A DNA stretch of 64,000 nt from an uncultured Clostridia bacterium (GCA_947307175.1 CAMZIK010000001.1:21220-85219); one strand, 5' to 3'; numbered from the stretch's first letter, positions 12,168 through 17,503 are shown. Made by a program: numbers and translations. Notes: generated from the sequence alone by a model not told the origin.

Positions 12168-12539
12168 GTGAAATATCTGATAGCATTTGCAAGCTCCGAC
12201 GGAGCAAACATCGACAGGCATTTCGGAGCTGCCGAAAGATTTTATATAGCGCAGCTCGATACCGAAAAAGAGGATTGCGACATAACGGGATACCGTGATG
12301 TTACGCCTGCCTGCAGCGGCGGCGGACACGAGCTTTCCGCATTTGATGCGATACTCAATACACTTGCCGGAGTGTCTGCGATAGTTGCACAGCGTGTCGG
12401 TTACGGTGCACAGGACTTCATTTCGCAAAAAGGTATCGCCGTGTACCAGATGCCGCTTCAGATAGAGCAGGCGATATGTCTGCTCATGGAAGAAAAACAA
12501 TGGGAGGTTGACAAATGGCTATCTCATACGAAGAGCTGA
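12168..12539 (+). CDS. NifX/NifB-C-terminal-like (FeMo-cofactor biosynthesis family) protein
   Basis: IAFASSDG..IDRHFGAAERF and AQRVGYGA motifs. Confidence 0.85.
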   Translation: MKYLIAFASSDGANIDRHFGAAERFYIAQLDTEKEDCDITGYRDVTPACSGGGHELSAFDAILNTLAGVSAIVAQRVGYGAQDFISQKGIAVYQMPLQIEQAICLLMEEKQWEVDKWLSHTKS

Positions 12540-13396
12540 CGACAAAGCACCCATGCTTTGCACGAGGCGAACAAAGCAACAACGGACGAATACATCTACC
12601 AATAAGTCCGAGCTGTAATATCGAGTGTAAATTCTGCGAGCGCAGTTTTAACAGCTATGAGGTAAGACCGGGCGTGAGCCGCACGGTCATCACACCGCAG
12701 GAAGCGATAGATGCGATACGCAGAGCGCTGGAATTCTGTCCCGACATCAAAGTCGCAGGAATAGCAGGACCGGGAGATACACTTGCAAGCCCTTTCGCAC
12801 TTGAAACGTTCAGGCTTATCAAAAAAGAGTTCCCGAACCTCGTTAAGTGCATGAGCACAAACGGGCTTCTGCTTGCCGAAAAGGCGCAGGAGGTAATAGA
12901 TGTAGGCATCGACTCGCTGACCGTTACCGTCAATGCGGTAGACCCTGAGATCGAAGCACAGCTCAATGATGGTATCTACTGGCATGGAGAGCATATCACA
13001 GGAGTCGAAGCTGCAAAGATACTTATAGAGCAGCAGCTCAAAGGCATAAAGCTCGTCAGCGATGCAGGCATAACACTGAAAGTAAATACCGTGCTTGTAC
13101 CCGACATCAATGCAGACCATATCGAAACGATAGCAAAAACAGTTGCCGAAGCAGGAGCGAGCATCTATAACATCATTCCGCTTATCCCTCAGCACAAGCT
13201 CAAAGACAGCAGAGAGCCTGACTGTATGGAGCGTGAAAGAGCAATACTAAAAGCTTCAAAATACATAGATGTTTTCAGGCATTGTCAGAGATGCCGTGCC
13301 GACGCAGTCGGGATACCAGGCGGAGAAGATTTCGGCGACAGGATATATCTTGACCTGCAAAGGCTTTCAAGAAAAGATACATTTTCACACGGTTAA
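12515..13396 (+). CDS. nifB: NifB-type radical SAM protein (MarB-like; no fused NifX domain)
   Basis: HPC, CNIECKFC (CxxxCxxC), EVRP, AGPGD, TNG and CQRCRADAVG are all NifB motifs. Confidence 0.9.
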   Translation: MAISYEELTTKHPCFARGEQSNNGRIHLPISPSCNIECKFCERSFNSYEVRPGVSRTVITPQEAIDAIRRALEFCPDIKVAGIAGPGDTLASPFALETFRLIKKEFPNLVKCMSTNGLLLAEKAQEVIDVGIDSLTVTVNAVDPEIEAQLNDGIYWHGEHITGVEAAKILIEQQLKGIKLVSDAGITLKVNTVLVPDINADHIETIAKTVAEAGASIYNIIPLIPQHKLKDSREPDCMERERAILKASKYIDVFRHCQRCRADAVGIPGGEDFGDRIYLDLQRLSRKDTFSHG

Positions 13397-13419
13397 TAAA
13401 TTTATGGAGGTAAAGTAAA

Positions 13420-14277
13420 ATGGCTAAGGAATTAAGACAGATCGCAATATACGGAAAGGGAGGTATCGGCAAGTCGACCACAACGCAGAATCTTACAGCG
13501 GGACTTGTCGAAAGAGGAAATCACGTAATGGTCGTAGGCTGTGACCCTAAGGCAGACTCAACAAGACTTCTGCTGGGCGGACTTCATCAGAAGACAGTCC
13601 TTGATACTCTGAGAGATCAGGGTGAGGACGAGATAGAGCTTGACGCTATCCTCAAGGAAGGCTTTATGGGAACAAAGTGCGTTGAGTCGGGCGGACCTGA
13701 GCCAGGCGTAGGCTGTGCAGGACGTGGTATCATTACATCTATCGGACTTCTCGAAAGGCTCGGCGCATATACCGAAGATCTTGATTATGTTTTCTATGAT
13801 GTCCTTGGAGACGTTGTCTGCGGCGGTTTCGCAATGCCTATCCGTGAGGGCAAGGCAAAGGAGATCTACATCGTAGCCAGCGGCGAGATGATGGCGCTTT
13901 ATGCGGCAAACAACATCTCAAAGGGTATCGCAAGATATGCCCGTCAGGGCGGCGTAAGGCTTGGCGGCATCATCTGCAACAGCAGAAACGTTGACCGTGA
14001 AGCAGAGCTTGTAAGAGCGTTTGCAAAGGAGCTGGGAACACAGATGATACATTTCGTTCCACGTGACAACGATGTTCAGAGAGCAGAGATAAGGAAGAAG
14101 ACCGTTATCCAGCATTTCCCGCAGTCCAGACAGGCAGACGAGTACAGAGCGCTCGCCGAGAAGATAGAGCAGAACGATATGTTCGTTATTCCTAAGCCGA
14201 TGACTCAGGAAAGACTTGAAGAGATACTCTTTGAGTACGGCCTTATGGAGAACGTTGAAGCAGATTACAGAATTTGA
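13420..14277 (+). CDS. nifH: Nitrogenase iron-protein homolog (NifH family; MarH-like)
   Basis: [33 protein letters not shown] and [11 protein letters not shown]. Ends ADYRI. Confidence 0.95.
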
Positions 14278-14294
14278 TAGTAGGAGAGTGCTTT

Positions 14295-15761: not shown

Positions 15762-15773
15762 AGGTGAATATAC

Positions 15774-17114
15774 ATGGCAGGATTGATTGAACAGGAGCGC
15801 TACACCTGCGCTATCGGCGCATTACAGACGGTAGTAGCGATACCCCGAGCAGTGCCGATACTCCATTCGGGACCGGGCTGCGGAGTTATGATAAAGGGCT
15901 TTTTCGAACGTTCGGCAGGCTATGCCGGCGGCGAGACTGCTCCTTGTACCAATTTCAGCGAGAAAGAGGTCGTTTTCGGCGGCACAGACAGACTTCGCAA
16001 CATAATCAAAAATACATATAAAGTCCTTGATACCGACCTTCAGGTCGTTGTAACAGGCTGTACCGCAGGCATCGTCGGAGACGACGTTGCAAGCGTGACC
16101 GATGAATTTCTCTATGAGGAAGACAGACCTATCGTCCACGTTGAAACATCAGGCTTCAAGTCCAACAACTACGTTTCACATTCAGCTGTCGTCAATGCAA
16201 TAATCGACCAGTATGTCAGCAGATTTGAACAGGAAAACCCATCACGCAGCGAGAAGAATCTCGTCAACGTCATCGCATCTATACCTTATCAGGATCAGTT
16301 CTGGAAGGGCAATTTAAAAGAATACAAAAGACTTCTTGAAGGACTCGGCTTGAAGGTCAACATTCTTTTCGGTCCTCATTCGGGAGGCGTAAAGGAATGG
16401 CAGACGATACCCAAGGCGAATTTCAACGTGTTTGTTTCGCCATGGTACGGCGAGCCTATCGTTAAGAATCTCCAGCGCCGCTACGGTCAGCCGTATTACA
16501 AGTTCGGCTATCTGCCGATAGGTGCGAATGAGACTACAAAGTTCCTTAACGGTGTCGTTGATTTCGCACTCGAACAGGGCGCAGAGATAGACGAGAAAAA
16601 AGCAAGAGCATTCATCGCCGAGGAAGAAAAGGCGTACTATGAGGAGCTTGATAACCTTGCAACATTCCTCCTGGAGTTCCGCTACGGTCTTCCGAGCTAT
16701 GTTCATATCCTGCACGATGCAGGCTACGTCACAGGACTGACAAAGTTCCTGCTGCACGAGACAGGTCTTGTTCCCAAGGAGCAGTTCATTGTTGACAATA
16801 TTCCAGCCAAGTATCAGGCGCAGGTCGCAGCTGATATAAAGGAAACATCAGACAAGCGTGAGATACCCGTTTACTTTGATCCCGACGCAGGCGCAATGCA
16901 GGACATCATCAGAGGTCTCAAGCATAAAGGCAGAGGTCTTATCCTTGGCAGCGGCTGGGACAAGGAGCTTGCCGCAGAGATCAATGCAGACTTCCTTTCG
17001 ATAGCCTGCCCGACGCCTTACCGCATCGTTCTTACGACCAATTATGTCGGCTACACAGGCGGTCTTAGAGTTATCGAGGACATCTACAATACCGCACTTG
17101 CAACATATAAGTAA
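15774..17114 (+). CDS. Group-IV nitrogenase-like beta subunit (MarK-like)
   Basis: YTCAIGA, HSGPGC and TGCTAGIVGDD give three P-cluster Cys; C-terminal YVGYTGGL. Confidence 0.85.
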   Translation: MAGLIEQERYTCAIGALQTVVAIPRAVPILHSGPGCGVMIKGFFERSAGYAGGETAPCTNFSEKEVVFGGTDRLRNIIKNTYKVLDTDLQVVVTGCTAGIVGDDVASVTDEFLYEEDRPIVHVETSGFKSNNYVSHSAVVNAIIDQYVSRFEQENPSRSEKNLVNVIASIPYQDQFWKGNLKEYKRLLEGLGLKVNILFGPHSGGVKEWQTIPKANFNVFVSPWYGEPIVKNLQRRYGQPYYKFGYLPIGANETTKFLNGVVDFALEQGAEIDEKKARAFIAEEEKAYYEELDNLATFLLEFRYGLPSYVHILHDAGYVTGLTKFLLHETGLVPKEQFIVDNIPAKYQAQVAADIKETSDKREIPVYFDPDAGAMQDIIRGLKHKGRGLILGSGWDKELAAEINADFLSIACPTPYRIVLTTNYVGYTGGLRVIEDIYNTALATYK

Positions 17115-17170
17115 AACAAAAAAGCTGCCGTTTTTCTGCGGCAGCTTATGCTTTAAAAGGAGATGATATT

Positions 17171-17503
17171 ATGCCGAAAGTAGCAGTTGCTACAAGTGAC
17201 GGGTTTGAGGTCAACGAGCATTTCGGTCACGCAAAGTTTTTCCGTGTCTACGAGCTTGGAGAAAGTGATTATACTTTTCTTGACGTCCGTGATGCAGTCG
17301 CAGTCTGCCAGCATAGCTTGGGTCATAACACGACCAGATTTGACAAGATAATCGAGCTGCTTTCCGATTGCGATGCCCTGCTCGTTCAGAAGATAGGGGA
17401 GGGCGCAGCCGCATATCTGATACAGAAAAATGTCAGAGTCTTTGAGGTCAGCGGCAGCATAGATGCAGTCCTGAAAAAGTTCATTGCAGACAAAATACTA
17501 TGA
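17171..17503 (+). CDS. Second NifX-like protein
   Basis: VAVATSDG..VNEHFGHAKFF and KIGEGA motifs. Confidence 0.85.
   Translation: MPKVAVATSDGFEVNEHFGHAKFFRVYELGESDYTFLDVRDAVAVCQHSLGHNTTRFDKIIELLSDCDALLVQKIGEGAAAYLIQKNVRVFEVSGSIDAVLKKFIADKIL

What the first reader, a model, noticed from the sequence alone, without database searches (positions are those of the whole stretch)
12168..17503. Complete methylthio-alkane-reductase-like (group IV) nitrogenase homolog in a Ruminococcus-type sulfur operon
Seen: nifX-nifB-nifH-D-K-nifX lies directly after mccB-mccA, with no nifE/N in the window. All six P-cluster Cys are present, plus the cofactor Cys (VQACSTLG) and His (GDEH). By manual alignment NifD V70, Q191 and H195 read T, W and F. 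Established: MarBHDK of Rhodospirillum rubrum reduces volatile organic sulfur compounds (dimethyl sulfide, methylthioethanol) to methanethiol plus methane or ethylene under sulfur limitation. Inference: this anaerobe cleaves C-S bonds to harvest sulfur and may be a bacterial, non-archaeal source of methane or ethylene, or may act on a different thioether or sulfonate.
Basis: partly seen in the sequence, partly recalled or inferred. Interest (0 to 1): 0.8.

Follow-up and report, generated by a model that had tools for sequence, protein, structure and literature searches.

The report
Nfa-type nitrogenase-like sulfur-salvage operon
A rumen Ruminococcus carries a complete nitrogenase look-alike inside a methionine/cysteine operon; it belongs to the known but functionally disputed "Group IV-A (Nfa)" family, not to the methane- or ethylene-releasing methylthio-alkane reductases, and most likely scavenges sulfur rather than fixing nitrogen.

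Summary
The gene cluster is real. Window 10087-17503 is one tightly packed operon: mccB-like, mccA/cysK-like, nflX, a truncated NifB-like maturase, a NifH-type Fe protein, D, K and a second nflX. It has no NifEN, and the whole genome has no true nitrogenase.

The closest solved structure is R. rubrum methylthio-alkane reductase (MarD, 9FMG; 447 bits). Even so, D is not a member of the MAR clade (Group IV-C). In ML trees it sits, with full support, in the clade that holds Endomicrobium NfaD (Group IV-A). It shares that protein's exact cysteine pattern. It lacks two residues that are invariant in 118 IV-C proteins: MarD His194 is Met here, and Gln74 is Thr.

The sulfur inference survives:
- 40 of 46 long loci of this clade, including Endomicrobium, carry MetY, MccA/B or Ssu/MetQ importers, and none carries recurrent nitrogen genes.
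- IV-A and IV-C pairs co-occur in single loci.
- Shared LacI-type operators tie the operon to a metY-importer operon.

The substrate is unknown. Published tests found 12 of 13 IV-A systems inactive on DMS/EMS/MT-EtOH, with a host caveat. This scan reached the same family assignment earlier on other DNA. Verdict: a new member of a known kind.

The parts
565..773 (.). First trio of LacI-type palindromes (TGATAACGTTATCA-like) upstream of the metY-like operon
   Evidence: 12 hits with up to 3 mismatches in the window against 2.3 expected. The sites are conserved at the same place in the 80-86% identical copy on C46.
781..2151 (+). MetY-like O-acetylhomoserine sulfhydrylase. It would capture methanethiol or sulfide into methionine or homocysteine.
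   Evidence: PF01053 at 389 bits; TIGR01326 at 457 bits, just under its cut-off. A homolog accompanies this D clade in 31 of 80 loci.
2180..2725 (+). ECF-type transporter S component
   Evidence: PF07155 at 107 bits; TIGR04002-like.
2753..5728 (+). Ssu/NMT1-type ABC importer: binding protein 2753-3811, permease 3870-4952, ATPase 4925-5728
   Evidence: An SsuA-type binding protein occurs in 21 of 46 long non-Ruminococcus loci of the clade.
8675..9766 (+). LacI-family transcription regulator, the candidate repressor of both sulfur operons
   Evidence: It is found next to the cluster only in the Ruminococcus group (10 loci).
9795..10001 (.). Second trio of LacI-type palindromes in the operon leader (9795-9808, 9874-9887, 9988-10001)
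   Evidence: The sites are conserved upstream of mccB in Ruminococcus loci L019-L028 and in C46.
10012..10040 (+). Promoter-like site (TTGACT, 17 nt spacer, TATGAT) immediately after the proximal operator
   Evidence: This is a consensus match only.
10087..11247 (+). MccB-like cystathionine gamma-lyase / homocysteine desulfhydrase family enzyme
   Evidence: PF01053 at 512 bits; NF005810 at 556 bits, below its cut-off of 594.
11253..12158 (+). MccA/CysK-family PLP enzyme (cysteine synthase or OAS-dependent cystathionine beta-synthase type)
   Evidence: TIGR01136 at 345 bits, at its cut-off.
12168..12539 (+). NflX1, a stand-alone NifX-like cofactor carrier
   Evidence: PF02579 at 56 bits. It overlaps the next gene by 25 nt.
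12515..13396 (+). NfaB/MarB-type truncated NifB (radical SAM core, no fused NifX domain), the maker of the L-cluster-type cofactor
   Evidence: TIGR01290 at 255 bits over profile positions 7-283 only. CxxxCxxC lies at C34/C38/C41.
13420..14277 (+). NfaH, an ATP-dependent Fe protein of genuine NifH type ('Group I NflH')
   Evidence: TIGR01287 at 459 bits, above its cut-off; 464 bits to C. pasteurianum NifH against 280 to R. rubrum MarH. Walker A, C99 and C134 are present.
14274..15761 (+). NfaD-type catalytic alpha-like subunit (Group IV-A). P-cluster ligands are C61/C86/C154, extra cysteines C58/C68/C89, cofactor ligands C264 and H423.
15774..17114 (+). NfaK-type beta-like subunit with P-cluster ligands C12/C36/C96
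   Evidence: 379 bits to R. rubrum MarK (9d9u_C)..
17171..17503 (+). NflX2, a second NifX-like protein
   Evidence: PF02579 at 80 bits. It is present in 55 of 80 loci.
17510..17539 (+). Terminator-like hairpin with a T-run, closing the operon
17547..18449 (-). MetA homoserine O-acyltransferase, convergent with the operon. It supplies the acyl-homoserine acceptor for MetY.
   Evidence: PF04204 at 425 bits.

Best explanation
The cluster encodes a Group IV-A ('Nfa-type') nitrogenase-like two-component reductase. A NifH-type Fe protein hydrolyses ATP and passes electrons to a D2K2 core. That core holds a P-type cluster and, at C264/H423, an Fe-only L-cluster-type cofactor made by the truncated NifB and carried by the two NifX-like proteins. 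No NifEN, molybdenum or homocitrate is involved.

In this Ruminococcus the enzyme works in sulfur acquisition, not nitrogen fixation. It reductively cleaves a C-S bond of an organosulfur compound. The freed thiol or sulfide is captured by the co-regulated MetY (with MetA's acyl-homoserine) and passed on to cysteine by the MccA/MccB-type enzymes encoded in the same operon.

A LacI-family repressor with three operators in front of each of two operons probably switches the whole set on together. The substrate is not known. The altered pocket (Met190 and Thr69 in place of MarD His194 and Gln74) suggests it differs from the DMS/EMS/methylthioethanol set of the Group IV-C reductases. So does the fact that IV-A sits beside IV-C enzymes in other genomes.

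Shown here: the family assignment, the ligand set, the gene context and the operator sites. Inferred: the cofactor type, the C-S cleavage chemistry, the flow of sulfur and the regulation.
For: Family:
- D sits in a 100/99-supported clade with Endomicrobium, A. thermocellus and R. albus AR67 (95% identical). That clade is separate from the 100/100-supported MarD family.
- D cysteines 58/61/68/86/89/154/264 and K cysteines 12/36/96 match the published Ep NfaD 50/53/60/78/81/146/257 and NfaK 13/37/97. Endomicrobium, Treponema and Acetobacterium members of the clade have exactly the published D numbering.
- PMC10418091 calls the thermocellus-type genes IV-A.

Cofactor:
- C264, W191, F195, H369 and R422-H423 equal MarD C270, W195, F199, H375 and R428-H429.
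- NifB-like and NifX genes are present. There is no NifEN in the genome.

Sulfur role:
- Eight genes lie 5-56 nt apart or overlap, between one promoter-like site and one terminator.
- Of 46 long non-Ruminococcus loci, 40 carry MetY, MccA/B or an Ssu- or MetQ-type binding protein. No PII, AmtB or GlnA genes recur.
- An Endomicrobium contig shows the same sulfur context.
- IV-A and IV-C D-K pairs share one locus in L029 and L054, the latter with a single H and B.
- The same operator trio precedes the metY-importer operon and this operon.
- The genome lacks any NIR_SIR sulfite reductase.

Other:
- H and K are under strong purifying selection (dN/dS 0.004 and 0.016).
- The literature notes that IV-A genes are co-localised with sulfur genes.
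Against: - No biochemical activity is known for any Clostridial IV-A enzyme.
- The only physiological reports for IV-A (E. proavitum, H. fasciatum) concern weak N2 fixation and ammonium-repressed nfaH.
- Thirteen IV-A systems gave no physiologically relevant activity on the three tested thioethers in R. rubrum, apart from C. magnum on DMS. So C-S cleavage by IV-A is unproven.
- Importer coupling is not specific to IV-A.
- The mccA/mccB labels rest on family scores at or below the curated cut-offs.
- The RNA evidence is weak: patchy metatranscriptome contigs from mixed strains.
- The LacI effector is unknown, and I did not test regulation by sulfur status.
Confidence: 0.6

Rival explanations
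1. It is a true methylthio-alkane reductase in function. It cleaves DMS, EMS or (2-methylthio)ethanol to methanethiol plus methane, ethane or ethylene. Its apparent exclusion from the MAR clade reflects phylogeny, not chemistry.
For: - It has the same cluster ligands and the same W191/F195/H369 pocket residues as MarD.
- MetY and MetA in the regulon fit capture of methanethiol. MccA/B fit conversion of methionine to cysteine.
- One IV-A system (C. magnum) exceeded the activity threshold on DMS.
- NifH-type ('Group I') Fe proteins such as this one work poorly in the R. rubrum test host. Swapping in R. rubrum MarBH rescued a Clostridium system about 100-fold, so the negative IV-A results may be false negatives.
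- Rumen DMS is 1-100 uM.
Against: - D is outside the IV-C clade, with full support.
- MarD His194 and Gln74 are invariant in 118 IV-C proteins. His194 is replaced in all 124 IV-A proteins and Gln74 in 122.
- 12 of 13 IV-A systems, and R. rubrum's own IV-A system, lack MAR activity.
- IV-A and IV-C pairs occur side by side in the same loci, which argues for different substrates.
Confidence: 0.2
2. It is an alternative nitrogenase (Nfa) that reduces N2 or another nitrogen compound to ammonia, as reported for the Group IV-A systems of Endomicrobium proavitum and Heliophilum fasciatum.
For: - It is in the same clade as Endomicrobium NfaD, at about 71% identity.
- The literature attributes diazotrophic growth to low density and 15N2 uptake to IV-A in two organisms that lack Nif, Vnf and Anf.
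- The Fe protein is a genuine NifH type.
- This genome has no other nitrogenase.
Against: - It sits in an operon with Met/Cys enzymes and shares operators with a metY-importer operon.
- No nitrogen-regulatory or ammonium genes lie in 80 loci of the clade. The only PII gene is about 21 kb away.
- Even an Endomicrobium contig has a sulfur context.
- The NifD residues needed for N2 reduction are absent.
- Rumen N2 fixation is negligible, and rumen nifH transcript ratios are low.
- The review itself questions whether N2 fixation is the primary role of Nfa.
Confidence: 0.08
3. It acts on a sulfonate (for example isethionate or taurine, imported by the Ssu-type transporter), in analogy to the Group IV-F isethionate system of Rhodobacter capsulatus.
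For: An SsuA/NMT1-type importer is co-regulated here and accompanies the clade in 21 of 46 long loci. A nitrogenase-like enzyme for isethionate assimilation is known.
Against: - The genome has no NIR_SIR sulfite reductase to use released sulfite.
- D is far from the clades outside IV-A/IV-C in the tree.
- Nearly as many loci carry a MetQ-type importer instead.
- The binding protein matches SsuA only weakly (109 bits against a cut-off of 163).
Confidence: 0.07

Closest known systems
NfaBHDK of Endomicrobium proavitum (Group IV-A nitrogen-fixation-like system)
   Same: Same D/K clade, about 71% identity to Endomicrobium MAG orthologs. The cysteine pattern in D and K is identical, including the extra Cys50/60/81 equivalents. 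There is a NifB-like maturase and no NifEN, and the Cys/His cofactor pair is like Mar's.
   Different: The Fe protein here is a genuine NifH type, whereas Ep NfaH is described as only 41% identical to A. vinelandii NifH and as clustering with MarH. Here the genes are in one operon with Met/Cys enzymes under LacI-type operators. No link to nitrogen is visible.
MarBHDK methylthio-alkane reductase of Rhodospirillum rubrum (Group IV-C; PDB 9FMG, 9D9U)
   Same: It is the best structural relative (D 447 bits, K 379 bits). It has the same six P-cluster cysteines and the same C270/H429 ligand pair. W195, F199, H375 and R428 are conserved. It has the same minimal B-H-D-K gene set with a separate NifX, as in the Ruminiclostridium hungatei system.
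   Different: It is a separate clade with full support. MarD His194 is Met and Gln74 is Thr here, both clade-wide differences. IV-A has two extra cysteines near the P-cluster. The Fe protein is of a different type. Activity on DMS, EMS and MT-EtOH has not been demonstrated for this clade.
Acetivibrio (Clostridium) thermocellus nitrogenase-like sulfur operon (Group IV-A)
   Same: D is about 75% identical and in the same clade. The partners are the same: NifX, truncated NifB, MetY, an Ssu-type importer, MccA/B and NifH-type H.
   Different: The gene order differs: D-K-X-B-MetY-SsuABC-H there, against MccB-MccA-X-B-H-D-K-X here with MetY and the importer in a separate co-regulated operon. The LacI regulator is specific to the Ruminococcus group.
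IsrHDK-type isethionate system of Rhodobacter capsulatus (Group IV-F)
   Same: It is a nitrogenase-like enzyme used for anaerobic sulfur assimilation, encoded among sulfur genes and importers.
   Different: It is a distant clade, proposed to carry only [4Fe-4S] clusters and to work with a radical SAM partner. I did not place it in my trees because I had no named sequence for it.

Membership tests
Group IV-C methylthio-alkane reductase (MarBHDK) | The D subunit falls inside the IV-C clade that holds R. rubrum MarD and the functionally verified systems | tested here: not met
   the MarD family forms its own 100/100 clade. It has 15 named rows and is anchored by P0125 (616 bits to 9FMG_A) and by Ruminiclostridium, Prevotella and Succinivibrio members. 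The window D lies in a different 100/99 clade.
Group IV-C methylthio-alkane reductase (MarBHDK) | Six P-cluster cysteines plus the Cys270/His429 ligands of the [Fe8S9C] cluster | tested here: met
   D C61/C86/C154, K C12/C36/C96, D C264 and R422-H423. The papers state that these are shared by nearly all Group IV clades, so they do not discriminate.
Group IV-C methylthio-alkane reductase (MarBHDK) | Pocket residues next to belt sulfide S2B: MarD Gln74 and His194. I found both invariant in 118 of 118 IV-C family members. | tested here: not met
   here they are Thr69 and Met190. Across 124 IV-A proteins they are M/T (119 of 124) and V/M/I/L (124 of 124).
Group IV-C methylthio-alkane reductase (MarBHDK) | Reduces DMS, EMS or MT-EtOH to methanethiol plus hydrocarbon at physiologically relevant rates | not testable with these tools
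   From the literature only: 12 of 13 IV-A systems fell below the threshold in R. rubrum and C. magnum was above it on DMS. There is a caveat for NifH-type Fe proteins.
Group IV-A nitrogen-fixation-like system (NfaBHDK) | The D subunit groups with Endomicrobium NfaD | tested here: met
   it is in one clade with two Endomicrobium MAG proteins. I could not fetch E. proavitum's own sequence. The link rests on the MAG proteins having exactly the published Ep cysteine numbering.
Group IV-A nitrogen-fixation-like system (NfaBHDK) | NfaD cysteines 53/78/146 plus the extra 50/60/81 and cofactor Cys257; NfaK cysteines 13/37/97 | tested here: met
   The window D has 61/86/154, 58/68/89 and 264 (offsets of +8 and +7). 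K has 12/36/96. The extra Cys58 and Cys89 occur in 119 and 122 of 124 IV-A proteins and in none of 118 IV-C proteins.
Group IV-A nitrogen-fixation-like system (NfaBHDK) | NfaB (NifB-like) present, NifEN absent | tested here: met
Group IV-A nitrogen-fixation-like system (NfaBHDK) | Supports N2 fixation and is repressed by ammonium | not testable with these tools
   The gene context argues against it. There is no experiment.
Bona fide nitrogenase (Nif/Vnf/Anf) | D and K reach the curated NifD/K, VnfD/K or AnfD/K model cut-offs; NifEN is present; V70/Q191/H195 and His442 are conserved | tested here: not met
   D scores 146 bits against a NifD cut-off of 654, and K scores 77 against a NifK cut-off of 427; no NifEN; the residues are replaced. 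Only H reaches the NifH cut-off (459 against 394).

The most novel reading that the evidence does not exclude
Group IV-A ('Nfa') enzymes as a whole are not nitrogenases. They are a second, widespread class of ATP-driven C-S-cleaving sulfur-salvage reductases, with a substrate different from that of the Group IV-C methylthio-alkane reductases. The substrate may be an imported, non-volatile thioether such as S-methylcysteine or a methionine-derived compound. The weak N2 fixation reported for Endomicrobium proavitum would then be a side reaction of the L-cluster-type cofactor. The His194-to-hydrophobic and Gln74-to-Met/Thr switches would be the specificity determinants.
Probability: 0.4. Interest if true: 0.7.

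Novelty: new member of a known kind. Interest (0 to 1): 0.4.

Why it matters
Its function is openly disputed: it is called an "alternative nitrogenase" on the basis of two organisms, yet it is nearly always encoded among sulfur genes. Rumen and gut surveys count its NifH-type gene as "nitrogenase", which inflates estimates of diazotrophy and of H2 from nitrogenase.

This locus does not change what is known. It does offer a tractable case, because R. albus strains with a 95%-identical enzyme are cultured. It also offers concrete handles:
- two clade-specific pocket residues;
- genomes where IV-A and IV-C share one Fe protein and one maturase;
- a LacI-type regulon whose effector could point to the substrate.

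If the enzyme did release methane or ethylene in the rumen it would matter for greenhouse-gas accounting, but the present evidence does not support that.

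Tried and rejected
- **Early Group IV-C reading, abandoned.** I first read the cluster as Group IV-C MAR. The reasons were the 447-bit match to 9FMG and the nflX plus truncated-marB layout that it shares with the functional R. hungatei system. I dropped this after the trees and the cysteine numbering.
- **Riboswitch or T-box control.** Rfam found none at gathering thresholds over the window, nor at E<=1 over 8400-12300.
- **Importer coupling as an IV-A-specific clue to a non-volatile substrate.** Rejected as discriminating, because a MarD-family locus also has MetNIQ and the P0122 clade has an Opp-type importer.
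- **Naming clade representatives by cluster look-up.** This gave almost no names.
- **Genome scan for named IV-C anchors.** Absence of a species from that list means nothing. I could not fetch E. proavitum, R. rubrum, R. hungatei, C. magnum or R. capsulatus sequences themselves.
- **Substrate hint from the binding protein.** PDB matches were weak: an uncharacterised exported protein at 59 bits and SsuA at 31 bits.
- **Expression evidence.** The C. thermocellum sulfur-perturbation paper does not mention the nif-like genes. Bovine metatranscriptome contigs cover the operon only patchily and from mixed strains.
- **E. proavitum genome-analysis paper.** It is not held, and no supplements are held for the mBio paper.
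- **Second copy on C46/C142.** I considered whether it is a paralog. It is collinear over more than 20 kb including flanking genes, so a co-binned relative or a large duplication cannot be told apart with the tools used.

Full report
**What is there**

On the + strand:

| Coordinates | Gene |
|---|---|
| 8675-9766 | LacI-family regulator |
| 10087-11247 | Cys/Met-PLP enzyme, closest to cystathionine gamma-lyase/homocysteine desulfhydrase (mccB-like) |
| 11253-12158 | CysK/CBS-family enzyme (mccA-like) |
| 12168-12539 | NifX-like protein |
| 12515-13396 | NifB-like radical SAM protein without a fused NifX domain |
| 13420-14277 | NifH-type protein |
| 14274-15761 | D |
| 15774-17114 | K |
| 17171-17503 | second NifX-like protein |

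- A terminator-like hairpin follows at 17510-17539, then a convergent metA.
- Neighbouring genes from 10087 to 17503 overlap or lie 5-56 nt apart, so this is most simply one operon.
- D ends at a real TAA stop.
- D and K score far below every curated NifD/K/E/N, Vnf and Anf cut-off. Only H passes the NifH cut-off.

**The rest of the genome**

The window lies in a 3.59-Mb, 319-contig genome that is 99.8% complete.

- The only other PF00148 genes are a second, collinear copy of this region and two very divergent H-D-K sets.
- The second copy is on contigs C46 and C142. It is 80-88% identical in DNA, and its D is 98% identical in protein.
- The divergent sets lie on C26 among hydrogenase maturation genes.
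- There is no true NifDK and no NifEN.
- Between the two copies, H and K show dN/dS of 0.004 and 0.016 at dS 0.42-0.85, so both copies are under strong constraint.
- The organism is a rumen Ruminococcus: D is 95% identical to R. albus AR67 and 98% identical to rumen Ruminococcus MAGs.

**First impression, and why it changed**

- The best solved structures are 9FMG and 9D9U (D 447 bits, K 379 bits), against about 130 bits for the best NifD. These are the R. rubrum methylthio-alkane reductase.
- A 2026 mBio paper shows that Group IV-C is the MAR clade. It found 15 of 20 IV-C systems active, including Clostridia with exactly this layout of a separate nflX and a truncated marB.
- That suggested a plain member of a characterised family.
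- Two things argued otherwise. My own hit list also held Endomicrobium, Treponema and Spirochaetia proteins at 72-73% identity.

**Clade assignment**

- An exhaustive search of 50%-identity representatives showed that D has its own cluster. Several others lie at about 40% identity.
- P0125 is the representative closest to R. rubrum MarD (616 bits). Its named relatives are Ruminiclostridium sufflavum and R. herbifermentans, C. kluyveri 'NifD2', C. pasteurianum, Lachnospiraceae, Prevotella, Paludibacteraceae, Succinivibrio and Ruminococcus sp. HUN007. That is the taxonomic spread reported for IV-C.
- In a 115-row tree and a 60-row tree with bootstraps, this MarD family forms a 100/100 clade on a long stem.
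- The window D forms a separate 100/99 clade. It groups with R. albus, A. thermocellus, A. clariflavus, Herbinix, Acetobacterium tundrae, Treponema, Synergistaceae, C. akagii and two Endomicrobium MAG proteins.
- The 2026 Chemical Reviews article gives E. proavitum NfaD cysteines as 53/78/146 (P-cluster), 50/60/81 (extra) and 257 (cofactor), and NfaK cysteines as 13/37/97.
- The Endomicrobium, Treponema and Acetobacterium members of the window's clade have exactly those D positions. The window D has them at +8 (and +7 for the last one). K has 12/36/96.
- An independent preprint calls the thermocellus-type genes 'nitrogenase superfamily IV-A group'.
- I therefore file D/K under Group IV-A (Nfa), not IV-C.

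**How IV-A differs from MAR at the active site**

I used the residue map of the MarDK structure paper and alignments of 124 IV-A and 118 IV-C proteins.

- Both clades keep the three D P-cluster cysteines. They also keep C264, W191, F195, H369-H370 and R422-H423, which equal MarD C270, W195, F199, H375-H376 and R428-H429.
- MarD His194 is one of three residues around belt sulfide S2B. It is His in 118 of 118 IV-C proteins and V/M/I/L in 124 of 124 IV-A proteins; it is Met190 here.
- MarD Gln74 takes the place of NifD Val70. It is Gln in 118 of 118 IV-C proteins and Met or Thr in 119 of 124 IV-A proteins; it is Thr69 here.
- Cys58 and Cys89, next to P-cluster ligands, are specific to IV-A.
- In all, 39 positions are fixed differently between the clades.

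**Fe protein**

H matches C. pasteurianum NifH at 464 bits and A. vinelandii NifH at 424 bits, but R. rubrum MarH at only 280 bits. It has the Walker A motif and the two cluster cysteines. This is the 'Group I NflH' type. The mBio authors found that type to work poorly in their R. rubrum host, and replacing it rescued a Clostridium MAR about 100-fold. Their negative results for IV-A therefore carry a caveat, which they acknowledge.

**Context: sulfur, not nitrogen**

- Upstream in the window lie a MetY-like O-acetylhomoserine sulfhydrylase, an ECF S component and an Ssu/NMT1-type ABC importer. A second ABC system and a GNAT follow.
- Across 80 named loci of this D clade, the D-K pair travels with NifX (55 loci), B (44), H (44), MetY (31), MccA/B (about 32) and an ABC importer.
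- Among 46 non-Ruminococcus loci of at least 12 kb, 21 have an SsuA-type binding protein and 19 a MetQ/NlpA-type one. Forty have at least one sulfur gene.
- The only other recurrent neighbours are an aminotransferase, a GGDEF-EAL protein, DUF4418, a URO-D-family methyltransferase-like protein, an M20 peptidase and BioY. No PII, AmtB, GlnA or NifA genes recur.
- A 58-kb Endomicrobium contig shows the same pattern: MetY-type enzyme, NMT1 importer, D, NMT1, a second D, K, Cys/Met-PLP enzymes, NifX and a PALP enzyme.
- In L029 (Ruminococcus sp. UBA7013) and L054, an IV-A D-K pair and a MarD-family D-K pair share one locus. In L054 they lie around a single H and a single B, each with its own importer.
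- Five more loci pair IV-A with more distant nitrogenase-like clades. The two families thus look like non-redundant modules of one sulfur toolkit.
- This genome has no NIR_SIR sulfite reductase. Sulfite from a sulfonate would be of no use, so a thiol or sulfide product is more plausible.
- Its only PII gene lies about 21 kb away in a separate nitrogen-assimilation region.

**Regulation**

- No S-box, T-box or other Rfam element precedes the operon.
- The 320-bp leader holds three TGATAACGTTATCA-like palindromes. A second trio precedes the metY-importer operon. There are 12 hits in the window against 2.3 expected.
- Both trios are kept in the 80-86% identical copy on C46. Matching operator sites (2-4 per locus) are kept upstream of mccB in the other Ruminococcus loci.
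- The LacI-family gene accompanies the cluster only in the Ruminococcus group.
- Known MAR regulators are a LysR-type protein (SalR) and a PadR-type protein (MarS). A LacI-type regulon would be a lineage-specific solution.

**Expression**

Two bovine metatranscriptome runs hold contigs that cover the operon genes more deeply than the flanks. The contigs are short, come from mixed strains at 90-99% identity, and DNA carry-over cannot be excluded. This is weak support for transcription in vivo.

**Most likely mechanism**

By homology with MarBHDK, the NifB-like enzyme builds an Fe-only L-cluster-type cofactor. The NifX-like proteins carry it to D (C264/H423). H delivers electrons with ATP hydrolysis through the P-type cluster. 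The cofactor reduces a C-S bond. The product is taken up by MetY (with MetA's acyl-homoserine) and routed to cysteine by the MccA/MccB-type pair.

The family, the ligands and the context are shown here. The cofactor, the chemistry and the sulfur flow are inferred. The substrate is open. The altered pocket and the co-occurrence with IV-C argue that it is not simply DMS, EMS or MT-EtOH. The C. magnum result and the Fe-protein caveat keep that option alive, at about 0.2. Nitrogen fixation is unlikely here, at about 0.08.

**Novelty**

- The family, its wide distribution, its lack of NifEN and its co-localisation with sulfur genes are all in the literature.
- Earlier follow-ups of this scan reached the same assignment for a rumen Ruminococcus and other genomes.
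- This is a new member of a known kind.
- I did not find the following in the papers I read: the clade-wide His194/Gln74 replacements, the sulfur context of an Endomicrobium locus, loci where IV-A and IV-C share one H and one B, and the absence of a sulfite reductase here.
- These points sharpen the open question of what Group IV-A does, but they do not answer it.

Noticed in passing
G000 contigs C46 (L016) and C142 (L017), against window 759-20421: A second, collinear copy of more than 20 kb of this region lies in the same assembly: metY through the nfa operon, metA and beyond. DNA identity is 80-88%, D is 98% identical in protein, and the operator trios are conserved. It is either a co-binned sister species (the bin has 3.4% contamination and many other contig pairs at 75-90% identity) or a large duplication.
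   Followed up: partly
G000 contig C26 (L015 3819-12420, minus strand): Two tandem, very divergent NifH-like / D-like / K-like sets (PF00148 at only 60-110 bits) lie between HydF plus a radical SAM gene on one side and HypF on the other, with HypD further along.
   Followed up: no
window 565-773 and 9795-10001; LacI gene 8675-9766: There are six LacI-type palindromes, three before each of two sulfur operons. They are conserved in relatives, and a weaker copy lies inside the 3' end of the LacI gene (9591-9604). A LacI-family regulator of sulfur genes is unusual.
   Followed up: partly
L054 89-16000 and L029 950-10627: These loci encode both an IV-A and a MarD-family (IV-C) D-K pair. In L054 both are on one strand around a single H, a single B and a NifX, each next to its own importer (MetN-type for IV-C; MetY plus SsuABC for IV-A).
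   Followed up: partly
L102 (Endomicrobium sp. contig) 3594-21491: This Endomicrobium locus has two IV-A-type D genes (496 and 491 aa) and one K. They are interleaved with two NMT1-type binding proteins and flanked by a MetY-type enzyme, an ABC importer, two further Cys/Met-PLP enzymes, NifX and a PALP enzyme. No H or B lies within 21 kb.
   Followed up: no
L099-L101 (human-gut contigs) 8025-18700: An unnamed nitrogenase-like clade (P0122/P0123) lies about as far from MarD as IV-A does, and groups with IV-A and IV-C in the tree. It is encoded as B-D-K-H-NifX followed by a five-gene Opp/Dpp-type ABC importer, beside Rrf2-NifU-NifS genes.
   Followed up: no
window 14200-14277: The NifH-type protein ends with an extension ...[16 protein letters not shown] beyond the usual NifH C-terminus. 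I did not test it.
   Followed up: no
whole genome G000: There is no NIR_SIR-domain sulfite reductase and only weak PAPS-reductase-family hits in a 99.8%-complete genome. The organism probably cannot assimilate sulfate or sulfite and depends on reduced or organic sulfur.
   Followed up: partly
window about 38623-38937, minus strand: The genome's only PII-domain match lies inside a 581-codon open frame. This suggests a PII domain fused to, or read through with, a larger protein such as an ammonium transporter.
   Followed up: no
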